From positions 1-60,509 of the forward strand of contig JBGTKD010000199.1 in NCBI GenBank assembly GCA_041744795.1: 60,509 nucleotides of DNA. The letters are read 5' to 3'. How positions within the stretch are numbered: position 1 is the stretch's first letter; every line of letters starts with the position of its first letter. The notes below the pieces were generated by a model that was not told the origin of the DNA, ran no database searches, and was given only the letters and a program-made list of their open reading frames with translations. The position numbers and the translations under genes are program-made. The stretch is from Acidimicrobiia bacterium (GTDB lineage: Bacteria > Actinomycetota > Acidimicrobiia > Spongiisociales > ZC4RG35). Below are positions 2,827-32,720 of this stretch, piece by piece.

Positions 2827-2918
<92 letters not shown>

Positions 2919-6789: not shown

Positions 6790-6863
6790 GCGCCCGTAGC
6801 TCAATTGGATAGAGCGTCTGATTACGGATCAGGAGGTTAGGGGTTCAAGTCCCTTCGGGCGTG
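6790..6863 (+). tRNA. tRNA-Arg (anticodon ACG)
   Basis: Starts GCGCCCG-TA-GCTC-AATTGGATA-GAGC. Anticodon stem TCTGA/TCAGG encloses the loop TTACGGA. T-arm is AGGGG-TTCAAGT-CCCTT. The 3' acceptor strand is CGGGCGT, giving a G1-U72 wobble, and the discriminator is G. Confidence 0.9.
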
Positions 6864-23972: not shown

Positions 23973-26495
23973 TTAGGCAACGGGAAACTCGACGGTGAAG
24001 ACAGTCCACCCGTCTTCCACATTCAAGGCAACGGTGCCGTCCATGGCCTCGGTCAGGGTCCGGACGACCGACAGACCCAGCCCGAGGGCGTCAGGCTGCC
24101 CCGCCCGGTCATGGGCACTGAAGAAGGGCTCAAAGATCGTCTCCACAAGATGCTCGGGGACTCCATCACCATCGTCCGATACGCGGATGGCCACCGATTC
24201 GGCGGTCACGACGCTCTCGACGCGGATGTTGGATCCGCCGTACCGGACAGCATTGCTAACGAGGTTCCGAAGCACCTGTCGCAAGCGGAGCGGGTCGGCT
24301 CTGACCGCTGGAGTACTAGTGATCACATGCTCGATGCTCACATCGGGGTTTGGGCGATGGTGACCAAGGACCTCGCGAATCTCAGAAGCGACATCTACCG
24401 CTTGCATTTGCACAGCAAGCGCCCCCATCTCGGCTCGGGCGGCTACGAGGAGATCGTCGACGATGGCGGCCATATCGGTGGCCTGGCGACGAATCTCGGA
24501 GGCGAACTGGGCGAGTTCGCTTGGCTCGAGGGCCTTGGTGTCCTCAAGCAGGCTGGCGAAACCGAGCACCGACGTGAGCGGGGTTCGGAGCTCGTGGCTG
24601 ACCGAAGCGATCAAGCGGTCCTTGGATCGGGCGAACTCGGCGGCCTGCCTGGCTGCCTCGCGCAGTTCGGTGATGTCGATATGCATGACAACAGCGGCGT
24701 CGAGGGGCATGACCGAGCGTGATACTTCGACACGAAACCACATGTGGGAGCACTGGTACACATGGCTGAACTTCTCCACGTCGCCACCCAGGACCCGTCG
24801 AATTCCCTCACCGACGATGGAAGCGTCATCGACGGGAGAACGGTCACATACCTCCAAGTAGTTGACTCCCACACCCACCTTGGTCAGGTCGGCGTCCTGT
24901 TCGATCGCGTTTTGGCGCCACACCTCGTTGACGGCCGTTATCGAGCCGTCCAAATCGAGCACCGCCGCAGGGAATTGGACGGACTCCAATATCGAGGTGG
25001 CCATCGCAGTCTGGACCGCAGCCTGGTCTTCGGCTCTCCGGAGATCGGTCAAGTCCACCACCACACCGAGAAATCCCACAGGGACACCGTCGGATCCCTT
25101 GAACAAAGTGTTCGTGACGAAGGTCGGGAAGGTAGAGCCATCCTTTCTCTGACACAGGTACTCGCCCTCCCAAGATCCGGTCTCCTGCATCGAGGCCATA
25201 ATCTCGGCGCCTCGTTCCAACTCGGACTCGGCGGGGGTGAGTTCGAGGATCGGCCGTCCGATGGCTTCGGTCTCTGACCAGCCGAACAGGGCCTCGGCCA
25301 CCCGGTTCCAGTAGACAACGGTTCCGCTGGTGTCCGTGGTGATCACGGCATTGCTGACCTGGTCGAGCATCGACGCCTGCCATCGAACTCGCCGCTCGTT
25401 TTCCAGTTGGGCTGTGACGTCTGTCAAGGCGCCATAGAGGACCGTCACGCCGCGATTGTCGGTGACTCCTCGCATTCTCATCCGGACTGTGATCGGGGTT
25501 CCGTCCAAGCGCCTCATCGCGACGTCCTCGTCTTCGATTGCTTCCCCCGCCCGGATTCTGTTCACCAGGTCGAGTCGTACGGCAGGATTCTCGTAAAGAC
25601 CTCTAACGCCGGTAGCTCTGAGATCTTCGACTGAATCGGCTCCGAATATCGACACCAGCGCGTTGTTGGCTTCCAGGAGTCCGCCTTCTGGGGTGGTCCG
25701 GAACAGGCCGACAGGAGCCTCGGTGACTATCTCGGAGTACCACTGCCTAGTACGCGACACCTCGCGCTCTGCACGCCAGTTGGACACCGCGTAGCGAAGC
25801 GTGCGGCCGATCCACGACGCCACGATCTCACTCTTGATCAGGTGATCGTGCGCTCCGCTCTCGAGTGCTATCAGATCGAGGGCGGAGTCACTCACCGTGG
25901 TGATGAAGATCATCGGTCCTGAGGCCACGGAATGAAGTTCATGTATGAGGTCCAACCCGGAGCCGCCCGGTAGTTGGTGACCGATGAGAATCACATCGTG
26001 GACCCTTGCGAGAATGGCCGCACGACCCTGTTGGACGTTGCGTACTTCGTCGACTGTCACCTCGATCCCCGGCGCAGCTAACAGCTCTTTGCTCAGACGC
26101 TCCAGGTCTTCGCTGTCGTCGACTATCAGCACCCGCAGTCGGTCCGGCGTCTTGCCGGATGGAGCCGATCCGATCCAGGAGGTGAGCTGTGCTCCGGCCG
26201 CATTGAGCCATCGCTCGCGGCGGTCCAGCGCCAGATACAGAAGCCCGCCGGTGATGATGACAAACCCGATTCCCTTCACGATCGAGAACCTCATGTCGAG
26301 AGCGCCCGCCCCGATCACCGCCACAAAAAAGTCTGACGTGACTATCCACAGAAGGCTGATGACGATGTACCCGAGGGCGATATTCAGAGGGGACAAACGC
26401 AACCAGAAGCTCCCACCAGAAGCTTCCCCCGCTCCGAGGCGCACCTCGCCGGGCAGCGATGCAGGTTCCTGGGTTGGTTCCTCGGGAAGCGTCAT
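23973..26495 (-). CDS. Membrane-anchored hybrid-like sensor histidine kinase (2 TM, pseudo-receiver, 3 PAS, HisKA, HATPase_c)
   Basis: 840 aa. Two N-terminal TM helices, then a receiver-like domain (RVLIVDDSED...DVILIGHQLPGGSG...). Three PAS modules follow, then HisKA (LIASVSHELRTPLTSVLG) and HATPase_c (NLVSNAVRYG...DDGDGVP...GLGLSVV). Confidence 0.85.
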   Translation of the reverse strand: MTLPEEPTQEPASLPGEVRLGAGEASGGSFWLRLSPLNIALGYIVISLLWIVTSDFFVAVIGAGALDMRFSIVKGIGFVIITGGLLYLALDRRERWLNAAGAQLTSWIGSAPSGKTPDRLRVLIVDDSEDLERLSKELLAAPGIEVTVDEVRNVQQGRAAILARVHDVILIGHQLPGGSGLDLIHELHSVASGPMIFITTVSDSALDLIALESGAHDHLIKSEIVASWIGRTLRYAVSNWRAEREVSRTRQWYSEIVTEAPVGLFRTTPEGGLLEANNALVSIFGADSVEDLRATGVRGLYENPAVRLDLVNRIRAGEAIEDEDVAMRRLDGTPITVRMRMRGVTDNRGVTVLYGALTDVTAQLENERRVRWQASMLDQVSNAVITTDTSGTVVYWNRVAEALFGWSETEAIGRPILELTPAESELERGAEIMASMQETGSWEGEYLCQRKDGSTFPTFVTNTLFKGSDGVPVGFLGVVVDLTDLRRAEDQAAVQTAMATSILESVQFPAAVLDLDGSITAVNEVWRQNAIEQDADLTKVGVGVNYLEVCDRSPVDDASIVGEGIRRVLGGDVEKFSHVYQCSHMWFRVEVSRSVMPLDAAVVMHIDITELREAARQAAEFARSKDRLIASVSHELRTPLTSVLGFASLLEDTKALEPSELAQFASEIRRQATDMAAIVDDLLVAARAEMGALAVQMQAVDVASEIREVLGHHRPNPDVSIEHVITSTPAVRADPLRLRQVLRNLVSNAVRYGGSNIRVESVVTAESVAIRVSDDGDGVPEHLVETIFEPFFSAHDRAGQPDALGLGLSVVRTLTEAMDGTVALNVEDGWTVFTVEFPVA

Positions 26496-26675: not shown

Positions 26676-27110
26676 TCAGCGGTAGTCGGTCACGTACTCC
26701 CGGAGGGCCTTCGTCTCGTCGACGAGTTCTCCCATTCGATGTTTGACCAAATCACCGATACTCACCACGCCGACTAGCCGACCATCGACGGTCACAGGCA
26801 TGTGCCGGAACCGTCCGTGCGTCATCTGGTCCATTACGTCTTCGATGTCGTCTTCGGGGGTGCAGGTTTCGACTTTGCGTGTCATGAGTTCGGCGACAGA
26901 CATCTCCAGCAAGTTGGGTCCATGGTCGACCATCGCCCGTACGAGGTCCCGCTCGGAAATGATCCCGACGACCGTGTCACCGTCATCGCTGACTACGAGC
27001 GCTCCGATGTTGTGCGTTTTCAGATGGACCAGAGTGGTGTGGATGTTGTCGTCGGACGTGACCTTGGCGACGTCCTCGCCCTTCGATGACAGGATGTTCT
27101 TTACGCGCAT
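26676..27110 (-). CDS. Tandem-CBS-domain protein
   Basis: 144 aa with two CBS repeats (…GALVVSDDGDTVVGIISERDLV… and …RHMPVTVDGRLVGVVSIGDLV…). Confidence 0.85.
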   Translation of the reverse strand: MRVKNILSSKGEDVAKVTSDDNIHTTLVHLKTHNIGALVVSDDGDTVVGIISERDLVRAMVDHGPNLLEMSVAELMTRKVETCTPEDDIEDVMDQMTHGRFRHMPVTVDGRLVGVVSIGDLVKHRMGELVDETKALREYVTDYR

Positions 27111-27212: not shown

Positions 27213-27857
27213 GTGACAGATTGTGCGAGTGACGTCTTAGCGGTGTGTCACTCGATCCTCGTAGGGTCAGCCGACAGGATGTCTGCACAGTCCTCTCATC
27301 CGACCATCATCGAAGATGTGACCGACGAATTGACTCCAGAAGAGTGGCTCATTCCTGAGGATGAGGAACCCTTTGAGCACCCGCCCTGGAGGCGCAGGAC
27401 GATCACAGCGGTGGGTGTTCTGGTGGCCGCTGCGATGCTCGCGGTGCCCGTGTGGAACGTCATAGATGGGGCGACGCCTCGTTTTTCCGACAGTGGTCTC
27501 GAGCTGTGCGGCTTCGATTACTGCGTCGTCCAGGAGGGGGTGAGGGAGGCGGGTCAAGGCCTAACGATGAGCCGGCTGGCCAACACGTTTCTCGCAGAGG
27601 ACGATGCAGGCCAACTTGTCGACGTCCTGGTGGGATATCTCGGCGTGGAACCGGTCACAGTCGAGGTGGTCGAGAGGCTCGATGGCCGGATAGCCGGTCA
27701 GTACCAGTCGGCGACCCGCCATATTCTCCTCGAGCGGCCCGTACGTGCCTGGATCGTCCTGCACGAGGTGGCCCATACGGTCTCCTCCGGACACGGCGAC
27801 GATTTCATCGAAACGCTGGTCGATCTTGCCCGTTGGATGGAGGCAACCGAACAGTGA
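27213..27857 (+). CDS. Membrane-anchored protein with SprT-like HExxH zinc-metallopeptidase motif
   Basis: One TM helix (ITAVGVLVAAAMLAVPVW) and a C-terminal IVLHEVAHTVSSGHGDDF (HExxH...GH). The start is GTG 27213 or the in-frame ATG 27279. Confidence 0.55.
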   Translation: MTDCASDVLAVCHSILVGSADRMSAQSSHPTIIEDVTDELTPEEWLIPEDEEPFEHPPWRRRTITAVGVLVAAAMLAVPVWNVIDGATPRFSDSGLELCGFDYCVVQEGVREAGQGLTMSRLANTFLAEDDAGQLVDVLVGYLGVEPVTVEVVERLDGRIAGQYQSATRHILLERPVRAWIVLHEVAHTVSSGHGDDFIETLVDLARWMEATEQ

Positions 27858-27887: not shown

Positions 27888-28799
27888 ATGGCTACAGGTA
27901 CTCACGACGCGATTCCTGACAACCGCAACGACGCGATAGTCGTATCGGTCAATGGTGAACTGGTTCCACGCGACCAAGCGAAGATCTCGGTGTTCGACTC
28001 CGGATATCTGGTGGGTGACGGGATTTGGGAGGCGGTTCGCCTTCATCGGGGGGTTCTGGTCTTTCTCGACGAGCACCTAGACCGGATGTGGGCTGCCGCG
28101 GCCACTGTCGCAATCGACATCAGAATGTCACGGGAGGAACTGACTGCCGAACTGCGACGGGTGTTGGATGCCAACGGCATGAACGACGGAGTGCACGTGA
28201 GATTCATGATCACCCGCGGGATCAAGAAGACGCCCTCCCAAGACCCGCGCCTCACTGTCTCCGGTCCCAACCTGGTGATCATCCCGGAGTACAAGGTCGC
28301 CCAGCCCGCAGAGGCTGGAATCAAGCTCTTCACGTCCACGATCCGTCGGGGTGGCCCGGAGATGCTTGACCCGCGGCTCAACTGCCACTCCAAACTTCAT
28401 GAAGTGATGGCGCTGATTCAGGCGCTCGAGGCCGGTGCAGACGAGGCGCTGATGCTCGACCCTCATGGCAACGTCGCCACCTGCAATTCGACCAACTTCT
28501 TCATCGTGAAAGACAGCGAGTTGTGGACCTCAACCGGTTCCTACTGCCTGCACGGCATTACGCGGGGAAAGGTTCTCGAGGTGGCCGCCCGGGCAGGCAT
28601 CCCGAGTTTTCAGCGTGACTTCTCACTGTTCGATGTCTACTCGGCCGATGAAGCGTTCGTGACAGGGACCTTTGGTGGGCTCACACCGGTAACCAATGTT
28701 GACGGCAGACACATCGGAACCGGAGACCGGACCATGACTGATCGTCTCAGGGGTCTTTACCGCGAGGCGGTTGAGTCGGCTGTGGCCGCCTCCTCGTGA
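27888..28799 (+). CDS. Class-IV (fold-type IV) PLP aminotransferase / lyase family protein
   Basis: 303 aa with class-IV patterns: VFDSGYLVGDGIWEAVRL..., ...VRFMITRG..., ...CLHGITRGKVLE..., ...EAFVTGTFGGLTPV.... Confidence 0.85.
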   Translation: MATGTHDAIPDNRNDAIVVSVNGELVPRDQAKISVFDSGYLVGDGIWEAVRLHRGVLVFLDEHLDRMWAAAATVAIDIRMSREELTAELRRVLDANGMNDGVHVRFMITRGIKKTPSQDPRLTVSGPNLVIIPEYKVAQPAEAGIKLFTSTIRRGGPEMLDPRLNCHSKLHEVMALIQALEAGADEALMLDPHGNVATCNSTNFFIVKDSELWTSTGSYCLHGITRGKVLEVAARAGIPSFQRDFSLFDVYSADEAFVTGTFGGLTPVTNVDGRHIGTGDRTMTDRLRGLYREAVESAVAASS

Positions 28800-29530
28800 C
28801 AGTCCGGATCTGTCTCTGGAGTGGGCCCCGGAACATCTCCACCGCCCTCATGTACTCCTTCGCACAGAGAAGCGACACGACTGTTGTCGACGAGCCTCTG
28901 TACGGGCATTACCTGCGGGTCACTCCCGCCGACGCCTACCACCCTGGGGCCGGAGAGGTCCTTACGTCGATGGAGACCGACGGGGAGAGCGTCGTTCGTG
29001 AGGTGATACTCGGCGATTACCGCACACCTGTTGTGTTCTTTAAGCAGATGACCCATCATCTGGTCGATCTGGACCGCGGGTTTCTCGACCAGACCGTGAA
29101 TGTCTTTTTGACTCGCGACCCGCACGACATGCTCCGCTCATATGGTGCGGTTGTCGAGAAACCGACCTTGTCAGACACCGGCTACCCGCACAGCGCGGCA
29201 CTGTTCGCCGAACTCAGCGACCGAGGCCAGGATCCGGCGGTCATCGACTCCACCCGCACCCTCGCTCATCCTGAGTCAGTTTTGCGAGCACTGTGCGACA
29301 GGATCGGTATCCCTTTCGAACCCTCGATGCTCTCCTGGGAAGCGGGACCCCGCCCCGAGGACGGGGTGTGGGCTCCCCACTGGTACTCGTCGGTCCACCG
29401 TTCTACTGGGTTCGGTTCGCCACGCGCCAAATCCGATCCCTTCCCAGAGCAACTGCGTCCGCTGTTGGAGGAATGCCTTCCCTTTTACGAATTGCTCGCG
29501 GAACACGCGCTAACTCCCGATATCCCTTAG
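28796..29530 (+). CDS. P-loop sulfotransferase-like protein of unknown function
   Basis: 244 aa starting LWSGPRNISTALMYSFAQRSDTTVVDEPLY..., later ...WEAGPRPEDGVWAPHWYSSVHRSTGF.... The GTG start overlaps the aminotransferase stop as GTGA. Confidence 0.75.
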   Translation: MTVRICLWSGPRNISTALMYSFAQRSDTTVVDEPLYGHYLRVTPADAYHPGAGEVLTSMETDGESVVREVILGDYRTPVVFFKQMTHHLVDLDRGFLDQTVNVFLTRDPHDMLRSYGAVVEKPTLSDTGYPHSAALFAELSDRGQDPAVIDSTRTLAHPESVLRALCDRIGIPFEPSMLSWEAGPRPEDGVWAPHWYSSVHRSTGFGSPRAKSDPFPEQLRPLLEECLPFYELLAEHALTPDIP

Positions 29531-29568: not shown

Positions 29569-30615
29569 ATGGATCGGGCAGCTGTCTGGGAGTTCATGGA
29601 GCGGTTCGTGGACATGGCGGCGGGTGCGGCCACACTCTTTACGTTGGCAGTTGCCGACAGGTCAGGGTTGATGAAGGTTCTCGGGACCTCCGAACCGCTC
29701 ACCGTCGAGGGGGCGGCCGATACGGCGGGACTCGATAAACGCTACGTCCAGGAGATTCTCTCCCAACTCGCCGCGTCTGGTGTCTTGGACTACGACCCCG
29801 TGACGAAAACGTTTGTCCTTCCTCCAGAGCGGGCGACTGTTATCGCAGACGATTCGAGCCCGTATGCGATGACAGGTTGGCTGGACATGTTGCCAACCGC
29901 CGGGAACTTCATCGATGAGGTGGCTGACGCGACACGTCACGGTGGCGGCGTATCGGCCTCGCATTATCCAGATCGCATGGTTCATGCCGTAGACCGAGCG
30001 AACGCTCCCAGCACCAGGATTCTGCTCACCAGAAAGTGGCTTCCCACGATGCCCGACGTCGTAGAGAAACTGGAACGAGGTGCGCGAGTCGCCGACGTCG
30101 GGTGTGGTTCGGGGACGGCATTGTTGACGATGGCCTCCGCCTTCCCCGCCTCGGAATTCGTCGGATACGACGTCGACCCGCGCGCGGTAGAAGCAGCCCG
30201 AGCCGCGACGGCTGAGACCGCACTCTCGAATGTCAGTTTCGAAGAGCTTGGGGCGGGGGAGATACCGCTGGGTTTCGATCTGATAACGACTTTTGATGTA
30301 GTGCATGACCTGGCCGAACCGCTGGCAGCGGTGACCCGGTTCCGGGAGGCATTGAACGAGGACGGCACATTCCTGATGATGGAACCCTCCGTGGCGGCCC
30401 GCCTCGAGGACAACGTAGAACCCCGAGCTGCCCTCCTCTACGGGGTGAGCCTCTTGTTCTGCATGACCCAATCATTGGCTGTCGGGGGCGCCGGTTTGGG
30501 CACCGCCTGGGGCCCGGAAAGAGCGGAGGCACTGTGTCGGGAGGCGGGGTTTACGCATTTCCGCCGTCTGCCCGTGGAGAATCCGTTTAGCGCTTTCTTC
30601 GAAGTCCGTGCTTGA
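29569..30615 (+). CDS. Class-I SAM-dependent methyltransferase with N-terminal winged-helix domain (Rv2258c-like)
   Basis: Motif I VADVGCGSG, post-I GYDVD and a C-terminal ENPFSAFFEVR. Confidence 0.85.
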   Translation: MDRAAVWEFMERFVDMAAGAATLFTLAVADRSGLMKVLGTSEPLTVEGAADTAGLDKRYVQEILSQLAASGVLDYDPVTKTFVLPPERATVIADDSSPYAMTGWLDMLPTAGNFIDEVADATRHGGGVSASHYPDRMVHAVDRANAPSTRILLTRKWLPTMPDVVEKLERGARVADVGCGSGTALLTMASAFPASEFVGYDVDPRAVEAARAATAETALSNVSFEELGAGEIPLGFDLITTFDVVHDLAEPLAAVTRFREALNEDGTFLMMEPSVAARLEDNVEPRAALLYGVSLLFCMTQSLAVGGAGLGTAWGPERAEALCREAGFTHFRRLPVENPFSAFFEVRA

Positions 30616-31646: not shown

Positions 31647-32720
31647 GTGTGGACCTGGCATGAAACTGATCTGGCGTCCGGTCGGGGGGCTCCAGCAGAG
31701 GCACGTGCCTGGCTGGGCTTCACATTCGGACTGCGCGGCCCGGTGGCAATTGACATCGAGGTTGTCACCTCGGAACTGATCCTGGCGATCCTTGAGACGG
31801 GATCGCTGGGAGACAACGAAGTTATCGGCCTCTCCGCTGATCGCCCCCCGGGAGCCGTGCACATCGAGGTAAGCGCGCCCTCTGGTTTCGAACTTCCCGC
31901 CGACTGCACTGGTCTTCTCGACGATCGGACTTCCGCCTGGGGGGATGTGACCGAAGACGGTTTGCGAACCGTCTGGTTCGAAGCATCGATCCCATCCGCT
32001 TCCTTTGAATTGGAAGTTGTCGATGACGGCGACCTGATTGAGCGGATGAGAGTCGATGAGCGAGCCGGGGCGGAATTTGTCGCCCGACACGAGCCTCTCG
32101 TCCGTCGTCTTGTCGCCCGATACCGGAGGTCGGGAGCCGAGGCAGAGGATCTGTTCCAGGTGGGGAGCGAGGCGCTAGTTGGTGCCGCCCATCGCTTCGA
32201 CCCTGGTCGGGGGTTGTTCGAGAGATTTGCGGCGAGGACGATCTCGGGGACTCTCAAAAAGCATTTTCGTGACCTGGGTTGGGCCGTCAAACCTCCTCGG
32301 CGGCTCCAGGAGGCCGTGCTTGAGATGCAGTCCTCAGAGCAGGAACTTGGTCAACGTTTGGGTCGAGCACCGACCTCCGCAGAACTGGCTAGCGAGATCG
32401 GCTGGTCGACGGACGAGGTCGCTAGGGCGCGACAGGCCGCTCAGGTGTATGACGCACAGCCGATTGACGACCTGGAGCGCCATCCCGGGTTCATCGACGC
32501 GGCTGTGGCGCGAGCGGCTGGCTGGGCGATCGTGGACCTTGCCATGGGTGCACTCCCAGAGCGTGAGCGCGAGATTGTCAGGCTCCGTTACTTCGAGGAT
32601 CTGAGCCAACGTCAGATCGCTGAGCGCATGGGCGTATCCCAGATGCATGTGAGCCGGCTGTTGCGGGCTTCGATCGAGGAGATGCGTCAGACAGCGGGAG
32701 TGTCGTCCAGCGACCAATGA
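31647..32720 (+). CDS. SigF/SigB-type (group 3) sigma-70 factor with N-terminal RsbW/SpoIIAB-like (HATPase_c_2) domain
   Basis: The C-terminal 230 aa or so carry region 2 (DLFQVGSEALVGAAHRFDPGRGLFERFAARTISGTLKKHFRD, WAVKPPRRLQE), region 3 and region 4 (REREIVRLRYFEDLSQRQIAERMGVSQMHVSRLL). The N-terminal 125 aa or so read AEARAWL...DIEVVTSELILAILETG...VHIEVSAPSG...WGDVTEDGLRTVWFE. Confidence 0.85.
   Translation: MWTWHETDLASGRGAPAEARAWLGFTFGLRGPVAIDIEVVTSELILAILETGSLGDNEVIGLSADRPPGAVHIEVSAPSGFELPADCTGLLDDRTSAWGDVTEDGLRTVWFEASIPSASFELEVVDDGDLIERMRVDERAGAEFVARHEPLVRRLVARYRRSGAEAEDLFQVGSEALVGAAHRFDPGRGLFERFAARTISGTLKKHFRDLGWAVKPPRRLQEAVLEMQSSEQELGQRLGRAPTSAELASEIGWSTDEVARARQAAQVYDAQPIDDLERHPGFIDAAVARAAGWAIVDLAMGALPEREREIVRLRYFEDLSQRQIAERMGVSQMHVSRLLRASIEEMRQTAGVSSSDQ

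What the first reader, a model, noticed from the sequence alone, without database searches (positions are those of the whole stretch)
27888..29530. Translationally coupled class-IV aminotransferase and P-loop sulfotransferase-like gene: apparent split form of fused plant 'BCAT-like' proteins of unknown function
The 303-aa fold-type-IV PLP enzyme ends at TGA 28797-28799, and the 244-aa gene starts at GTG 28796, a GTGA overlap.

The second protein reads LWSGPRNISTALMYSFAQRSDTTVVDEPLYGHYL...PAVIDSTRTLAHPESVLRALCDRIGIPFEPSMLSWEAGPRPEDGVWAPHWYSSVHRSTGF. This matches, almost motif for motif, what I recall of the N-terminal domain of Arabidopsis 'branched-chain-amino-acid aminotransferase-like protein 1/2' (At3g05190 / At5g27410). 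In those proteins that domain is fused to a class-IV aminotransferase domain resembling the first gene here (...VSVFDS...WEG/AVR...LDEHLDR...).

Fusion in plants plus tight coupling here, in the opposite domain order, argues for one two-component enzyme. To my knowledge neither the substrate nor the role of the sulfotransferase-like fold is known. A SAM-methyltransferase gene (29569..30615) follows 38 nt downstream on the same strand and may belong to the same pathway.
Basis: partly seen in the sequence, partly recalled or inferred. Interest (0 to 1): 0.65.

Follow-up and report, generated by a model that had tools for sequence, protein, structure and literature searches.

The report
Sulfotransferase paired with lysine-less aminotransferase-like protein
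Two overlapping genes encode a sulfotransferase and an aminotransferase look-alike that lacks its catalytic lysine; the pair is adjacent in bacteria of many phyla and fused into one protein in land plants, and I found no published function for it.

Summary
ORF 27888..28799 (303 aa, Pfam Aminotran_4) and ORF 28796..29530 (244 aa, Pfam Sulfotransfer_5) overlap by GTGA.

The split/fusion idea is also correct:
- The 244-aa protein is 48% identical to residues 24-252 of Physcomitrium 'branched-chain-amino-acid aminotransferase-like protein 1'.
- The 303-aa protein is 41% identical to residues 274-559 of the same protein.
- A class-IV partner lies directly beside the sulfotransferase gene, on the same strand, in 62 of 80 genomes from more than 15 phyla.
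- No third gene is conserved.

The 'aminotransferase' label is wrong. Asn165 sits where fold-type-IV enzymes carry the Schiff-base lysine, as in PDB 7Z79 (54% identical).

Partners fall into two clades:
- Clade A (this window): Asn at the lysine site, gene upstream of the sulfotransferase.
- Clade B (plants, most fusions): His at that site, gene downstream.
- Both keep the cofactor phosphate cup and share cationic pocket residues absent from true BCATs.

The sulfotransferase keeps PAPS-type motifs and most resembles the 'activating' sulfotransferases CurM and OLS.

Best reading: an obligate sulfotransferase plus lysine-less PLP-fold partner acting on a small anionic metabolite. Substrate and chemistry remain unknown. 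The methyltransferase is a neighbour only in Acidimicrobiia.

The parts
27888..28799 (+). AT4*: 303-aa fold-type-IV PLP-fold protein of clade A, lacking the catalytic lysine
   Evidence: Pfam PF01063 at E 1.5e-42. Below all NCBIfam equivalog cut-offs. 54% identical to PDB 7Z79 at E 2e-102. 70-93% identical homologues in many phyla.
28380..28382 (+). Codon AAC = Asn165, at the position of the Schiff-base lysine of fold-type-IV transaminases
   Evidence: HMMER alignments place 'DPRLN165CHSK' against 'PPNIKSLNY' of the archaeal BCATs 5CM0, 5E25 and 5MQZ. 7Z79 has Asn at this position, and 9J32 is the same chain with Lys there. Asn in 26 of 26 clade-A sequences; His in 37 of 38 clade-B sequences.
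28796..29530 (+). ST5: 244-aa sulfotransferase of Pfam family Sulfotransfer_5
   Evidence: PF19798 at E 1.3e-47. AF2 model pLDDT 94.9. Foldseek best hits are CurM ST, TPST1/2, OLS ST, Stf0 and SULT2A1. Profile hits to CurM ST at E 1e-6 and OLS ST at E 7e-6.
28796..28799 (+). GTGA stop/start overlap between the two genes
   Evidence: Read directly from the sequence. Comparable overlaps of -4 or -8 nt, or gaps under 25 nt, occur in most related loci.
28817..28843 (+). ST5 residues 8-16 (WSGPRNIST): P-loop like the 5'-phosphosulfate-binding loop
   Evidence: W8, S9, P11, R12, N13, S15 and T16 are conserved in at least 90% of 47 homologues. Assignment to the PAPS 5'-PSB loop is by motif analogy (inference).
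29114..29140 (+). ST5 residues 107-115 (RDPHDMLRS): motif like the 3'-phosphate-binding motif
   Evidence: R107 and P109 are invariant and S115 is at least 90% conserved. The profile alignment puts this segment on 'RHPYSVIES' of CurM ST.
29569..30615 (+). SAM methyltransferase with Rv2258c-like wHTH: a lineage-specific operon neighbour, not part of the conserved module
   Evidence: Pfam hits. Present downstream only in Acidimicrobiia loci L001 and L002 among 80 loci.
27213..27857 (+). HEXXH-motif protein 30 nt upstream: a lineage-specific neighbour
   Evidence: Weak YgjP-like and TIGR04338 hits. Conserved upstream only in L001 and L002.

Best explanation
The two overlapping genes encode an obligately paired module.

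ST5 is a catalytically competent-looking, PAPS-type sulfotransferase, related most closely to the 'activating' sulfotransferases CurM ST and OLS ST.

AT4* has the fold of a branched-chain/D-amino-acid aminotransferase and keeps the cofactor phosphate cup (R66, T225, R226, T261). In this clade it also keeps the pyridine-N1 glutamate (E186). It has Asn165 where the Schiff-base lysine should be, so it cannot work as an ordinary transaminase. It carries extra invariant cationic residues (R13, R28, K113, K136) and His103. By homology to BCAT, these map to the substrate pocket.

Most likely mechanism (inferred, not shown): the two proteins act together on one small anionic amino-acid-like or 2-oxo-acid-like metabolite. 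AT4* holds the metabolite, probably through a non-covalently bound B6 cofactor (PLP or PMP) or directly in the remodelled pocket. ST5 transfers the sulfuryl group from PAPS to it. The result is either a sulfated product or a sulfate leaving group for a PLP-type elimination.

Shown here: gene coupling, conservation of the pair, fusion in eukaryotes and some bacteria, loss of the lysine, and retention of the nucleotide and cofactor motifs.

Inferred: physical complex, PAPS use, B6 binding, and the nature of the substrate.
For: - GTGA overlap.
- Same-strand adjacency in 62 of 80 loci across more than 15 phyla, with no other conserved neighbour.
- In-frame fusion in a planctomycete (L037).
- Fusion in land plants from liverworts to angiosperms, 50-55% identical to L037 over 99% of its length.
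- Further fusions in a choanoflagellate and others.
- A clade-A-type fusion also exists (P0199).
- On the ST5 tree, partner type needs 4 changes against 22 in shuffles (0 of 500 as low), although phyla are mixed. ST5 and its partner are therefore inherited together.
- The lysine is replaced by Asn or His in every partner examined.
- R66, T225, R226 and T261, plus W47, R51, H103, R105, K113 and K136, are invariant in both clades.
- ST5 invariants R12, S15, T16, E33, K83, H87, H88, R107 and S115.
- Sulfotransferase fold and profile matches.
- A CysQ-like PAP phosphatase gene lies next to the pair in L023.
Against: - No biochemical data and no paper were found.
- AF2 of the fused protein gives good domains but pTM 0.57, so no confident inter-domain geometry.
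- In seven gammaproteobacterial clade-B partners the pyridine-N1 acid is Ala or Ser.
- The O3'-binding Tyr position is Lys, Arg or Leu. Classical PLP electron-sink chemistry may therefore not be retained.
- 14 of about 76 assessable loci have ST5 without an adjacent partner.
- PAPS-pathway genes are not recurrent neighbours.
Confidence: 0.55

Rival explanations
1. AT4* is a pseudoenzyme: a non-catalytic partner that has lost transaminase chemistry. It serves only as a scaffold, an allosteric regulator or a substrate-recognition subunit of the sulfotransferase. All chemistry is the single sulfuryl transfer by ST5.
For: - The Schiff-base lysine is lost in all partners.
- The O3' Tyr position is changed.
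- The N1 acid is Ala or Ser in seven clade-B members.
- There is a precedent for lysine-less aminotransferase-like subunits in hetero-oligomers: Ser4/Ser5 (PMC11726168, listed).
Against: - Sequence conservation is extreme: 70% or more between phyla.
- The phosphate cup and putative carboxylate-binding residues are invariant.
- New invariant pocket residues are shared by both clades. This pattern is typical of a ligand-binding or catalytic site, not of a decaying one.
Confidence: 0.25
2. One reading: a genuine class-IV aminotransferase (BCAT/D-AAT-like) coupled to a sulfotransferase-like protein. Transamination of an amino or keto acid is one of two steps.
For: Pfam Aminotran_4 hit. The best NCBIfam hits are BCAT and D-AAT models. 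A clade-B partner even exceeds the ilvE_I cut-off, 251.1 against 245.55 bits.
Against: - Asn165 aligns with the catalytic Lys of solved BCATs.
- No strictly conserved lysine lies nearby. Position -2 is Arg or Lys, and position +4 is Lys in clade A (Arg in 7Z79) and Leu in clade B.
- The window protein is below all curated cut-offs.
- ColD-type precedent shows that lysine-less enzymes can still transaminate, so this reading is not fully excluded.
Confidence: 0.1
3. The two are independent enzymes of one pathway, or of unrelated pathways, that merely share an operon. ST5 might be a nucleotide-dependent kinase-like P-loop protein rather than a sulfotransferase.
For: - 14 of about 76 assessable loci lack an adjacent partner.
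- Foldseek also lists shikimate and adenylate kinases at E around 1e-3.
- There is no confident domain-domain geometry in the fusion model.
Against: - Fusions occur in eukaryotes and in bacteria, with both partner clades.
- ST5 and partner type are co-inherited.
- The conserved 3'-phosphate motif aligns with CurM ST.
- All top structural hits are sulfotransferases with probability 1.0.
Confidence: 0.1

Closest known systems
Plant and other eukaryotic 'branched-chain-amino-acid aminotransferase-like protein 1/2'
   Same: The same two domains. Window ST5 is 48% identical and window AT4* 41% identical to the two halves of the Physcomitrium protein. Both lack the catalytic lysine. No functional study was found.
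   Different: The plant protein is one polypeptide with the order ST5 then AT4. Its AT domain belongs to clade B: His-His at the lysine site, invariant in 77 fusions. Here there are two genes, the AT comes first, and it belongs to clade A (Asn).
PDB 7Z79 'Aminotransferase, class 4', and 9J32, the same chain with Lys at the Asn position
   Same: 54% identical over 292 residues at E 2e-102. The same 'LN.HS' segment with Asn at the lysine site.
   Different: It is a solved structure of a homologue from another organism. I could not read its paper or its ligands. My recollection that it comes from Variovorax paradoxus is unverified. Whether a sulfotransferase gene lies next to it is unknown.
CurM and OLS 'activating' sulfotransferase domains (PDB 4GBM, 4GOX)
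   Same: They are the best sequence-profile and fold matches to ST5. The R..P.....S 3'-phosphate motif and the C-terminal 'LC..L.(I/V)PF(E/D)..(M/L)L' segment are shared.
   Different: Identity is only about 16% and TM-score 0.5-0.55. CurM ST is a polyketide-synthase domain acting on an ACP-bound beta-hydroxyacyl group. ST5 is free-standing or fused to a PLP-fold domain, and it has its own invariant 'GPRPEDGVWA.HWY' segment.
Canonical fold-type-IV enzymes (IlvE-type BCAT, D-amino-acid transaminase, aminodeoxychorismate lyase)
   Same: The same fold. 37% identity to the archaeal BCAT 5CM0. The EH..R phosphate Arg, GITR, TGT and the (clade A) DEA Glu are retained.
   Different: No Schiff-base lysine. 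BCAT Tyr95 becomes His103. BCAT Phe36 becomes Trp47. New invariant K113, K136 and an N-terminal D..RN motif. Below the NCBIfam cut-offs.
PMP-dependent, lysine-less sugar 3-dehydratases ColD and E1 (fold type I; from established knowledge, not tested here)
   Same: An aminotransferase-fold enzyme in which the Schiff-base lysine is replaced (by His, as in clade B here) and which still carries out B6 chemistry on a keto substrate with loss of a leaving group.
   Different: A different fold type and nucleotide-sugar substrates, with no sulfotransferase partner. This is an analogy for how the protein could work, not a family assignment.

Membership tests
Fold-type-IV aminotransferases (BCAT / D-AAT / ADCL) | Aminotran_4 fold and domain | tested here: met
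   PF01063 at E 1.5e-42 over residues 45-271. PDB BCAT hits at E 1e-52.
Fold-type-IV aminotransferases (BCAT / D-AAT / ADCL) | Schiff-base (catalytic) lysine | tested here: not met
   Asn165 aligns with the Lys of 5CM0, 5E25 and 5MQZ. Asn in 26 of 26 clade-A sequences.
Fold-type-IV aminotransferases (BCAT / D-AAT / ADCL) | Cofactor phosphate cup (Arg of EH..R, Thr of GITR, Thr of TGT) and pyridine-N1 Glu | tested here: met
   R66, T225/R226, T261 and E186 are conserved in clade A. Position 186 is variable in part of clade B.
Fold-type-IV aminotransferases (BCAT / D-AAT / ADCL) | Score above a curated equivalog cut-off (ilvE_I, D_amino_aminoT, pabC models) | tested here: not met
   ilvE_I 182.6 bits against 245.55. 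PRK08320 225.7 against 363. D_amino_aminoT 152 against 277.
PAPS-dependent sulfotransferase superfamily (Pfam Sulfotransfer_5) | Family HMM match | tested here: met
   PF19798 at E 1.3e-47, 162.6 bits against a cut-off of 23.2.
PAPS-dependent sulfotransferase superfamily (Pfam Sulfotransfer_5) | Sulfotransferase fold | tested here: met
   AF2 pLDDT 94.9. Foldseek top 23 hits are all sulfotransferases, probability 0.98-1.00, TM 0.36-0.63.
PAPS-dependent sulfotransferase superfamily (Pfam Sulfotransfer_5) | 3'-phosphate-binding motif (R....S) and 5'-phosphosulfate-binding loop | tested here: met
   R107-D-P-x-D-x-x-x-S115 aligns with CurM ST 'RHPYSVIES'. The P11-R12-N13-x-S15-T16 loop is conserved. 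Loop assignment is by motif analogy.
PAPS-dependent sulfotransferase superfamily (Pfam Sulfotransfer_5) | Binds PAPS and transfers sulfate | not testable with these tools
   Needs biochemistry.
ST5 + lysine-less AT4 module (eukaryotic BCAT-like 1/2 and bacterial gene pairs) | Both domains present, adjacent or fused, on the same strand | tested here: met
   GTGA overlap here. 62 of 80 loci adjacent. Fusions.
ST5 + lysine-less AT4 module (eukaryotic BCAT-like 1/2 and bacterial gene pairs) | Partner lacks the lysine and carries the shared signature W47, H103, K113, K136, N200, T202 | tested here: met
   All are present in the window protein and invariant in both clades.
ST5 + lysine-less AT4 module (eukaryotic BCAT-like 1/2 and bacterial gene pairs) | Same partner clade as the plant proteins (His-His at the lysine site, gene/domain order ST5 then AT4) | tested here: not met
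   The window partner is clade A (Asn, upstream gene). Plants are clade B.

The most novel reading that the evidence does not exclude
The pair, and its plant fusion, is an enzyme of undescribed chemistry in which sulfuryl transfer from PAPS is coupled to B6-type chemistry on a lysine-less fold-IV scaffold.

Two concrete versions:
(i) Sulfate-activated elimination or deoxygenation of a hydroxy amino acid or oxo acid, by analogy with CurM ST and with ColD.
(ii) C-sulfonation of an enamine or aminoacrylate-type intermediate held by AT4*, giving cysteate or sulfopyruvate. [quoted passage not shown]

Nothing in the neighbourhood data supports a specific product.
Probability: 0.15. Interest if true: 0.9.

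Novelty: new variant of a known kind. Interest (0 to 1): 0.6.

Why it matters
This protein pair is conserved from hot-spring Acidimicrobiia through Flavobacteria, Planctomycetes and Chloroflexi to all land plants. In plants, and also in choanoflagellates, the two are fused. That spread marks a widespread metabolic step that has no name.

The plant proteins are routinely counted as BCAT family members. Bacterial clade-B partners can pass the ilvE equivalog threshold. Yet none of these proteins has the catalytic lysine, so current annotation is misleading.

Several cultured carriers exist (Olleya, Winogradskyella, Cyclobacterium, Fodinibius), along with plant mutant collections and one crystal structure. 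The question is therefore directly testable. The answer could reveal a new sulfated or sulfonated metabolite, or a new use of the PLP fold.

Tried and rejected
- Third conserved gene. All-vs-all clustering of ORFs in 80 loci, plus Pfam census of 131 nearest and 103 second-nearest neighbours. Nothing recurs in more than 5 loci: AIRS 5, CorA 4, D-AAT-like 3, Inositol_P 3.
- Methyltransferase as a pathway member. Rejected as a general feature, because it is present only in L001 and L002.
- Riboswitch or other RNA leader. None in the window or in 34 loci.
- Promoters and terminators. No informative sites and no terminator between the genes.
- Domain-domain geometry. AF2 of the fused L037 protein with 77 fusions gave pTM 0.57. 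This is inconclusive, and no coordinates are available.
- Relocated Schiff-base lysine near the old site. Rejected, because positions -2 and +4 are not strictly Lys. The invariant K113 and K136 cannot be excluded.
- Literature. No paper found on the plant loci, on PF19798 function or on 7Z79/9J32. PF19798 appears only in family surveys.
- Transcript evidence. Only DNA metagenome runs (hot spring) hold the region.
- Genome-wide co-occurrence with cysC, cysQ or pdxH. Not possible, because the genome search and the fetch from genomes were shut.
pdxH was not among the recurrent neighbour families.
Full report
**Observation**

The + strand carries ORF 27888..28799 (303 aa) and ORF 28796..29530 (244 aa). 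The sequence reads ...ctcctcGTGAcag..., so the GTG start (28796-28798) and the TGA stop (28797-28799) overlap by four bases.

Pfam assigns the first protein to Aminotran_4 (E 1.5e-42) and the second to Sulfotransfer_5, PF19798 (E 1.3e-47). The GTG start is the right one. Homologues begin two to four residues before the invariant '(R)I.LWSGPRN' segment. A shorter public gene call (P0002) would delete that segment.

A methyltransferase gene follows after 38 nt (Methyltransf_31 plus an Rv2258c-like winged helix). A HEXXH protein gene ends 30 nt upstream. No terminator-like site separates the genes.

**Is the pair more than chance?**

A scan of one genome per species returned 80 loci encoding relatives of the 244-aa protein at 51-74% identity. 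They come from Acidimicrobiia, Gemmatimonadota, Pseudomonadota, Balneolota, Bacteroidota, Chloroflexota, Acidobacteriota, Planctomycetota, Verrucomicrobiota, Latescibacterota, Poribacteria, Deinococcota, Rubrobacteraceae, Ignavibacteriota and Rhodothermota.

- In 62 of these loci a class-IV aminotransferase-like gene lies immediately beside it on the same strand. Most show overlaps of -4 or -8 nt or gaps below 25 nt.
- Four of the 18 exceptions are cut by contig ends on the relevant side.
- Starting from the aminotransferase side, both homologues looked up also had PF19798 next door.
- No other gene travels with the pair. ORF clustering and Pfam censuses of 131 nearest and 103 second-nearest neighbours found no family in more than five loci.
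- No Rfam element occurs in the window or in 34 loci.
- The methyltransferase, the HEXXH protein, a CBS protein and a lipoprotein are syntenic only in two other Acidimicrobiia.

**The fusion claim**

An exhaustive HMMER search found proteins of 555-763 aa with the sulfotransferase domain N-terminal and Aminotran_4 C-terminal. One of them is from the choanoflagellate Diaphanoeca.

One of the 80 loci, L037 from a planctomycete, encodes an in-frame 539-aa fusion. Searching with it returned over a hundred land-plant proteins, from Marchantia, Physcomitrium and Selaginella to many angiosperms. Their sources name them 'branched-chain-amino-acid aminotransferase-like protein 1/2'. All carry PF19798 + PF01063 and are 50-55% identical over 99% of the query.

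The window's two proteins match the two halves of the Physcomitrium protein. One half matches at 48% identity (E 1e-68), the other at 41% (E 3e-69). A plant paper independently reports a 'BCAT' with D-AAT-like plus Sulfotransfer_5 domains (PMC13725701).

**The aminotransferase is not an aminotransferase**

The closest solved structure is 7Z79 ('Aminotransferase, class 4', E 2e-102, 54% identity). Entry 9J32 is the same chain, differing in the aligned stretch only at one position, where Asn in 7Z79 is Lys in 9J32. The window protein has Asn165 there.

In the HMMER alignments to three archaeal BCAT structures, this Asn lies opposite the Lys of 'PPNIKSLNYLNNILAK'. That motif holds the Schiff-base lysine of fold-type-IV enzymes (established knowledge).

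The protein scores below every curated NCBIfam cut-off for BCAT, D-amino-acid transaminase and aminodeoxychorismate lyase.

**Two partner clades**

The partners in the 62 loci split into two clades.

- Clade A includes the window, at 58-83% identity. Its gene lies upstream of the sulfotransferase gene. It has 'LN-C-H-S-K', with Asn in 26 of 26 sequences.
- Clade B is only 39-47% identical to the window protein. Its gene lies downstream. It has 'K-I-H-H-N-N-L', with His in 37 of 38 sequences.
- The plant fusions belong to clade B, and the His-His pair is invariant in 77 fusions.
- A 763-aa fusion with a clade-A-type domain also exists (P0199).

Both clades keep the following:
- the cofactor phosphate cup (R66 of 'EH.DR', T225-R226 of 'GITR', T261 of 'TGT');
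- R51 and R105, the equivalents of BCAT Arg40 and Arg97.

Both clades also share invariant residues that true BCATs lack. These are the N-terminal D11, R13 and N14, then R28, W47, H103 (Tyr95 in E. coli BCAT), K113, T115, E134, K136, N200, T202 and C220.

By homology to the E. coli BCAT pocket (my knowledge), K113 and K136 fall on the loops that line the substrate side-chain pocket. This suggests an anionic substrate; that is an inference.

Some observations argue against a classical electron-sink role:
- The Tyr that contacts PLP O3' is Lys, Arg or Leu.
- The pyridine-N1 acid is Glu in clade A and Asp in most of clade B, but Ala or Ser in seven gammaproteobacterial members.
- No strictly conserved Lys sits near the old site.

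**The sulfotransferase**

With 47 homologues, AF2 gives pLDDT 94.9. The best Foldseek PDB matches are CurM ST, tyrosylprotein sulfotransferases 1/2, the OLS ST, Stf0 and SULT2A1 (probability 1.0, TM 0.37-0.63).

A family profile finds CurM ST (E 1e-6) and OLS ST (E 7e-6). It aligns 'R107-D-P-.-D-.-.-.-S115' with CurM's 'RHPYSVIES'. This is the 3'-phosphate motif of PAPS enzymes.

Family invariants are P11-R12-N13-.-S15-T16, D32-E33-P34, K83, H87-H88, R107, P109 and S115, plus a family-specific 'W181...D189-G-.-W-A-..-W-Y' block. All the hallmarks of an active sulfotransferase are present. PAPS use itself was not testable.

One locus has a CysQ-like PAP phosphatase gene just downstream. This is a weak hint.

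**Co-inheritance**

On a maximum-likelihood tree of 90 ST5 sequences, partner type (A or B) needs only 4 changes, against a mean of 22 in shuffles (0 of 500 as low). Yet Bacteroidota, Acidobacteriota, Pseudomonadota, Chloroflexota and Verrucomicrobiota each contain both types. The eukaryotic fusions form one clade with SH-aLRT 99. ST5 therefore evolves together with its partner, not simply with the organism.

**What could not be settled**

- AF2 of the L037 fusion gave well-folded domains (pLDDT 87.6) but pTM 0.57, so no reliable inter-domain arrangement.
- The region is found only in DNA metagenomes from hot springs, so there is no transcript evidence.
- No paper on the function of the family, the plant genes or 7Z79 was found.

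**Interpretation**

The best-supported reading is an obligate two-protein system, fused in eukaryotes and in some bacteria. It consists of a PAPS-type sulfotransferase and a lysine-less fold-IV protein with a remodelled, cationic pocket. The system acts on a small anionic metabolite like an amino acid or oxo acid.

I rate the coupled-module part at about 0.85. I rate the specific idea that AT4* holds the acceptor, probably with non-covalent PLP or PMP, while ST5 sulfonates it at about 0.35. The combined confidence is 0.55.

Rivals:
- AT4* is a non-catalytic partner (0.25).
- AT4* is a genuine transaminase despite the missing lysine (0.1).
- The two are independent enzymes, or ST5 is not a sulfotransferase (0.1).

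Notes from earlier windows of this scan describe the same module in at least 19 genomes, and most reach the same reading. I treat them as leads, not as evidence.

**Verdict**

This is a real, widespread module with no functional study found, made of members of known superfamilies in an undescribed combination. The substrate is unknown.

Noticed in passing
L081:7687-8544, also L004, L006, L082 and L083; L084:5054-5908: In Woeseiaceae-like Proteobacteria and in a Chloroflexi genome, a third class-IV gene lies beside the pair. It is D-amino-acid-transaminase-like. The L081 copy keeps the catalytic lysine ('CDIKSTALLGN'); the L084 copy has a possible 'LAKTADF' lysine motif. This could hint at a D-amino-acid or keto-acid link.
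   Followed up: partly
L041:4886-5746 (clade-B partner): A lysine-less clade-B partner scores 251.1 bits on NCBIfam TIGR01122 ilvE_I, above the 245.55 cut-off. Automatic pipelines can therefore name such proteins branched-chain-amino-acid transaminase.
   Followed up: partly
P0126 (400 aa) and P0204 (846 aa): Other fusions of the Sulfotransfer_5 domain exist. One carries a C-terminal NUDIX domain. Another carries N-terminal guanylate-kinase repeats and a YHS domain.
   Followed up: no
L047, L080, L067, L036, L079, L021, L062 (clade-B partners, Gammaproteobacteria): In this sub-lineage the acidic residue that normally contacts the PLP pyridine nitrogen is Ala or Ser ('VDAALMLD', 'VDSAIMLD').
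   Followed up: no
L023:5780-6604: A CysQ-like 3'(2'),5'-bisphosphate nucleotidase gene lies about 110 nt downstream of the pair on the same strand. Inositol-monophosphatase-family genes lie divergently upstream in L055 and L056.
   Followed up: partly
window 31647..32720 (+): A sigma-70-family protein of 357 aa. Its sigma regions 2-4 start only at residue 145, and the N-terminal 140 residues have no Pfam match.
   Followed up: no
window 23973..26495 (-): An 840-aa hybrid sensor kinase with an N-terminal hydrophobic segment, a receiver domain, PAS, HisKA and HATPase_c. It lies upstream of a divergent CBS-pair protein gene (26676..27110).
   Followed up: no
window 28850..29530 (public gene call P0002): A public gene call for the sulfotransferase starts at an internal Met (226 aa) and omits the conserved P-loop. 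The GTG at 28796 is the better start.
   Followed up: yes
window 2827..2916 and 6790..6863 (+): Two tRNA genes are the only Rfam matches in the window.
   Followed up: no
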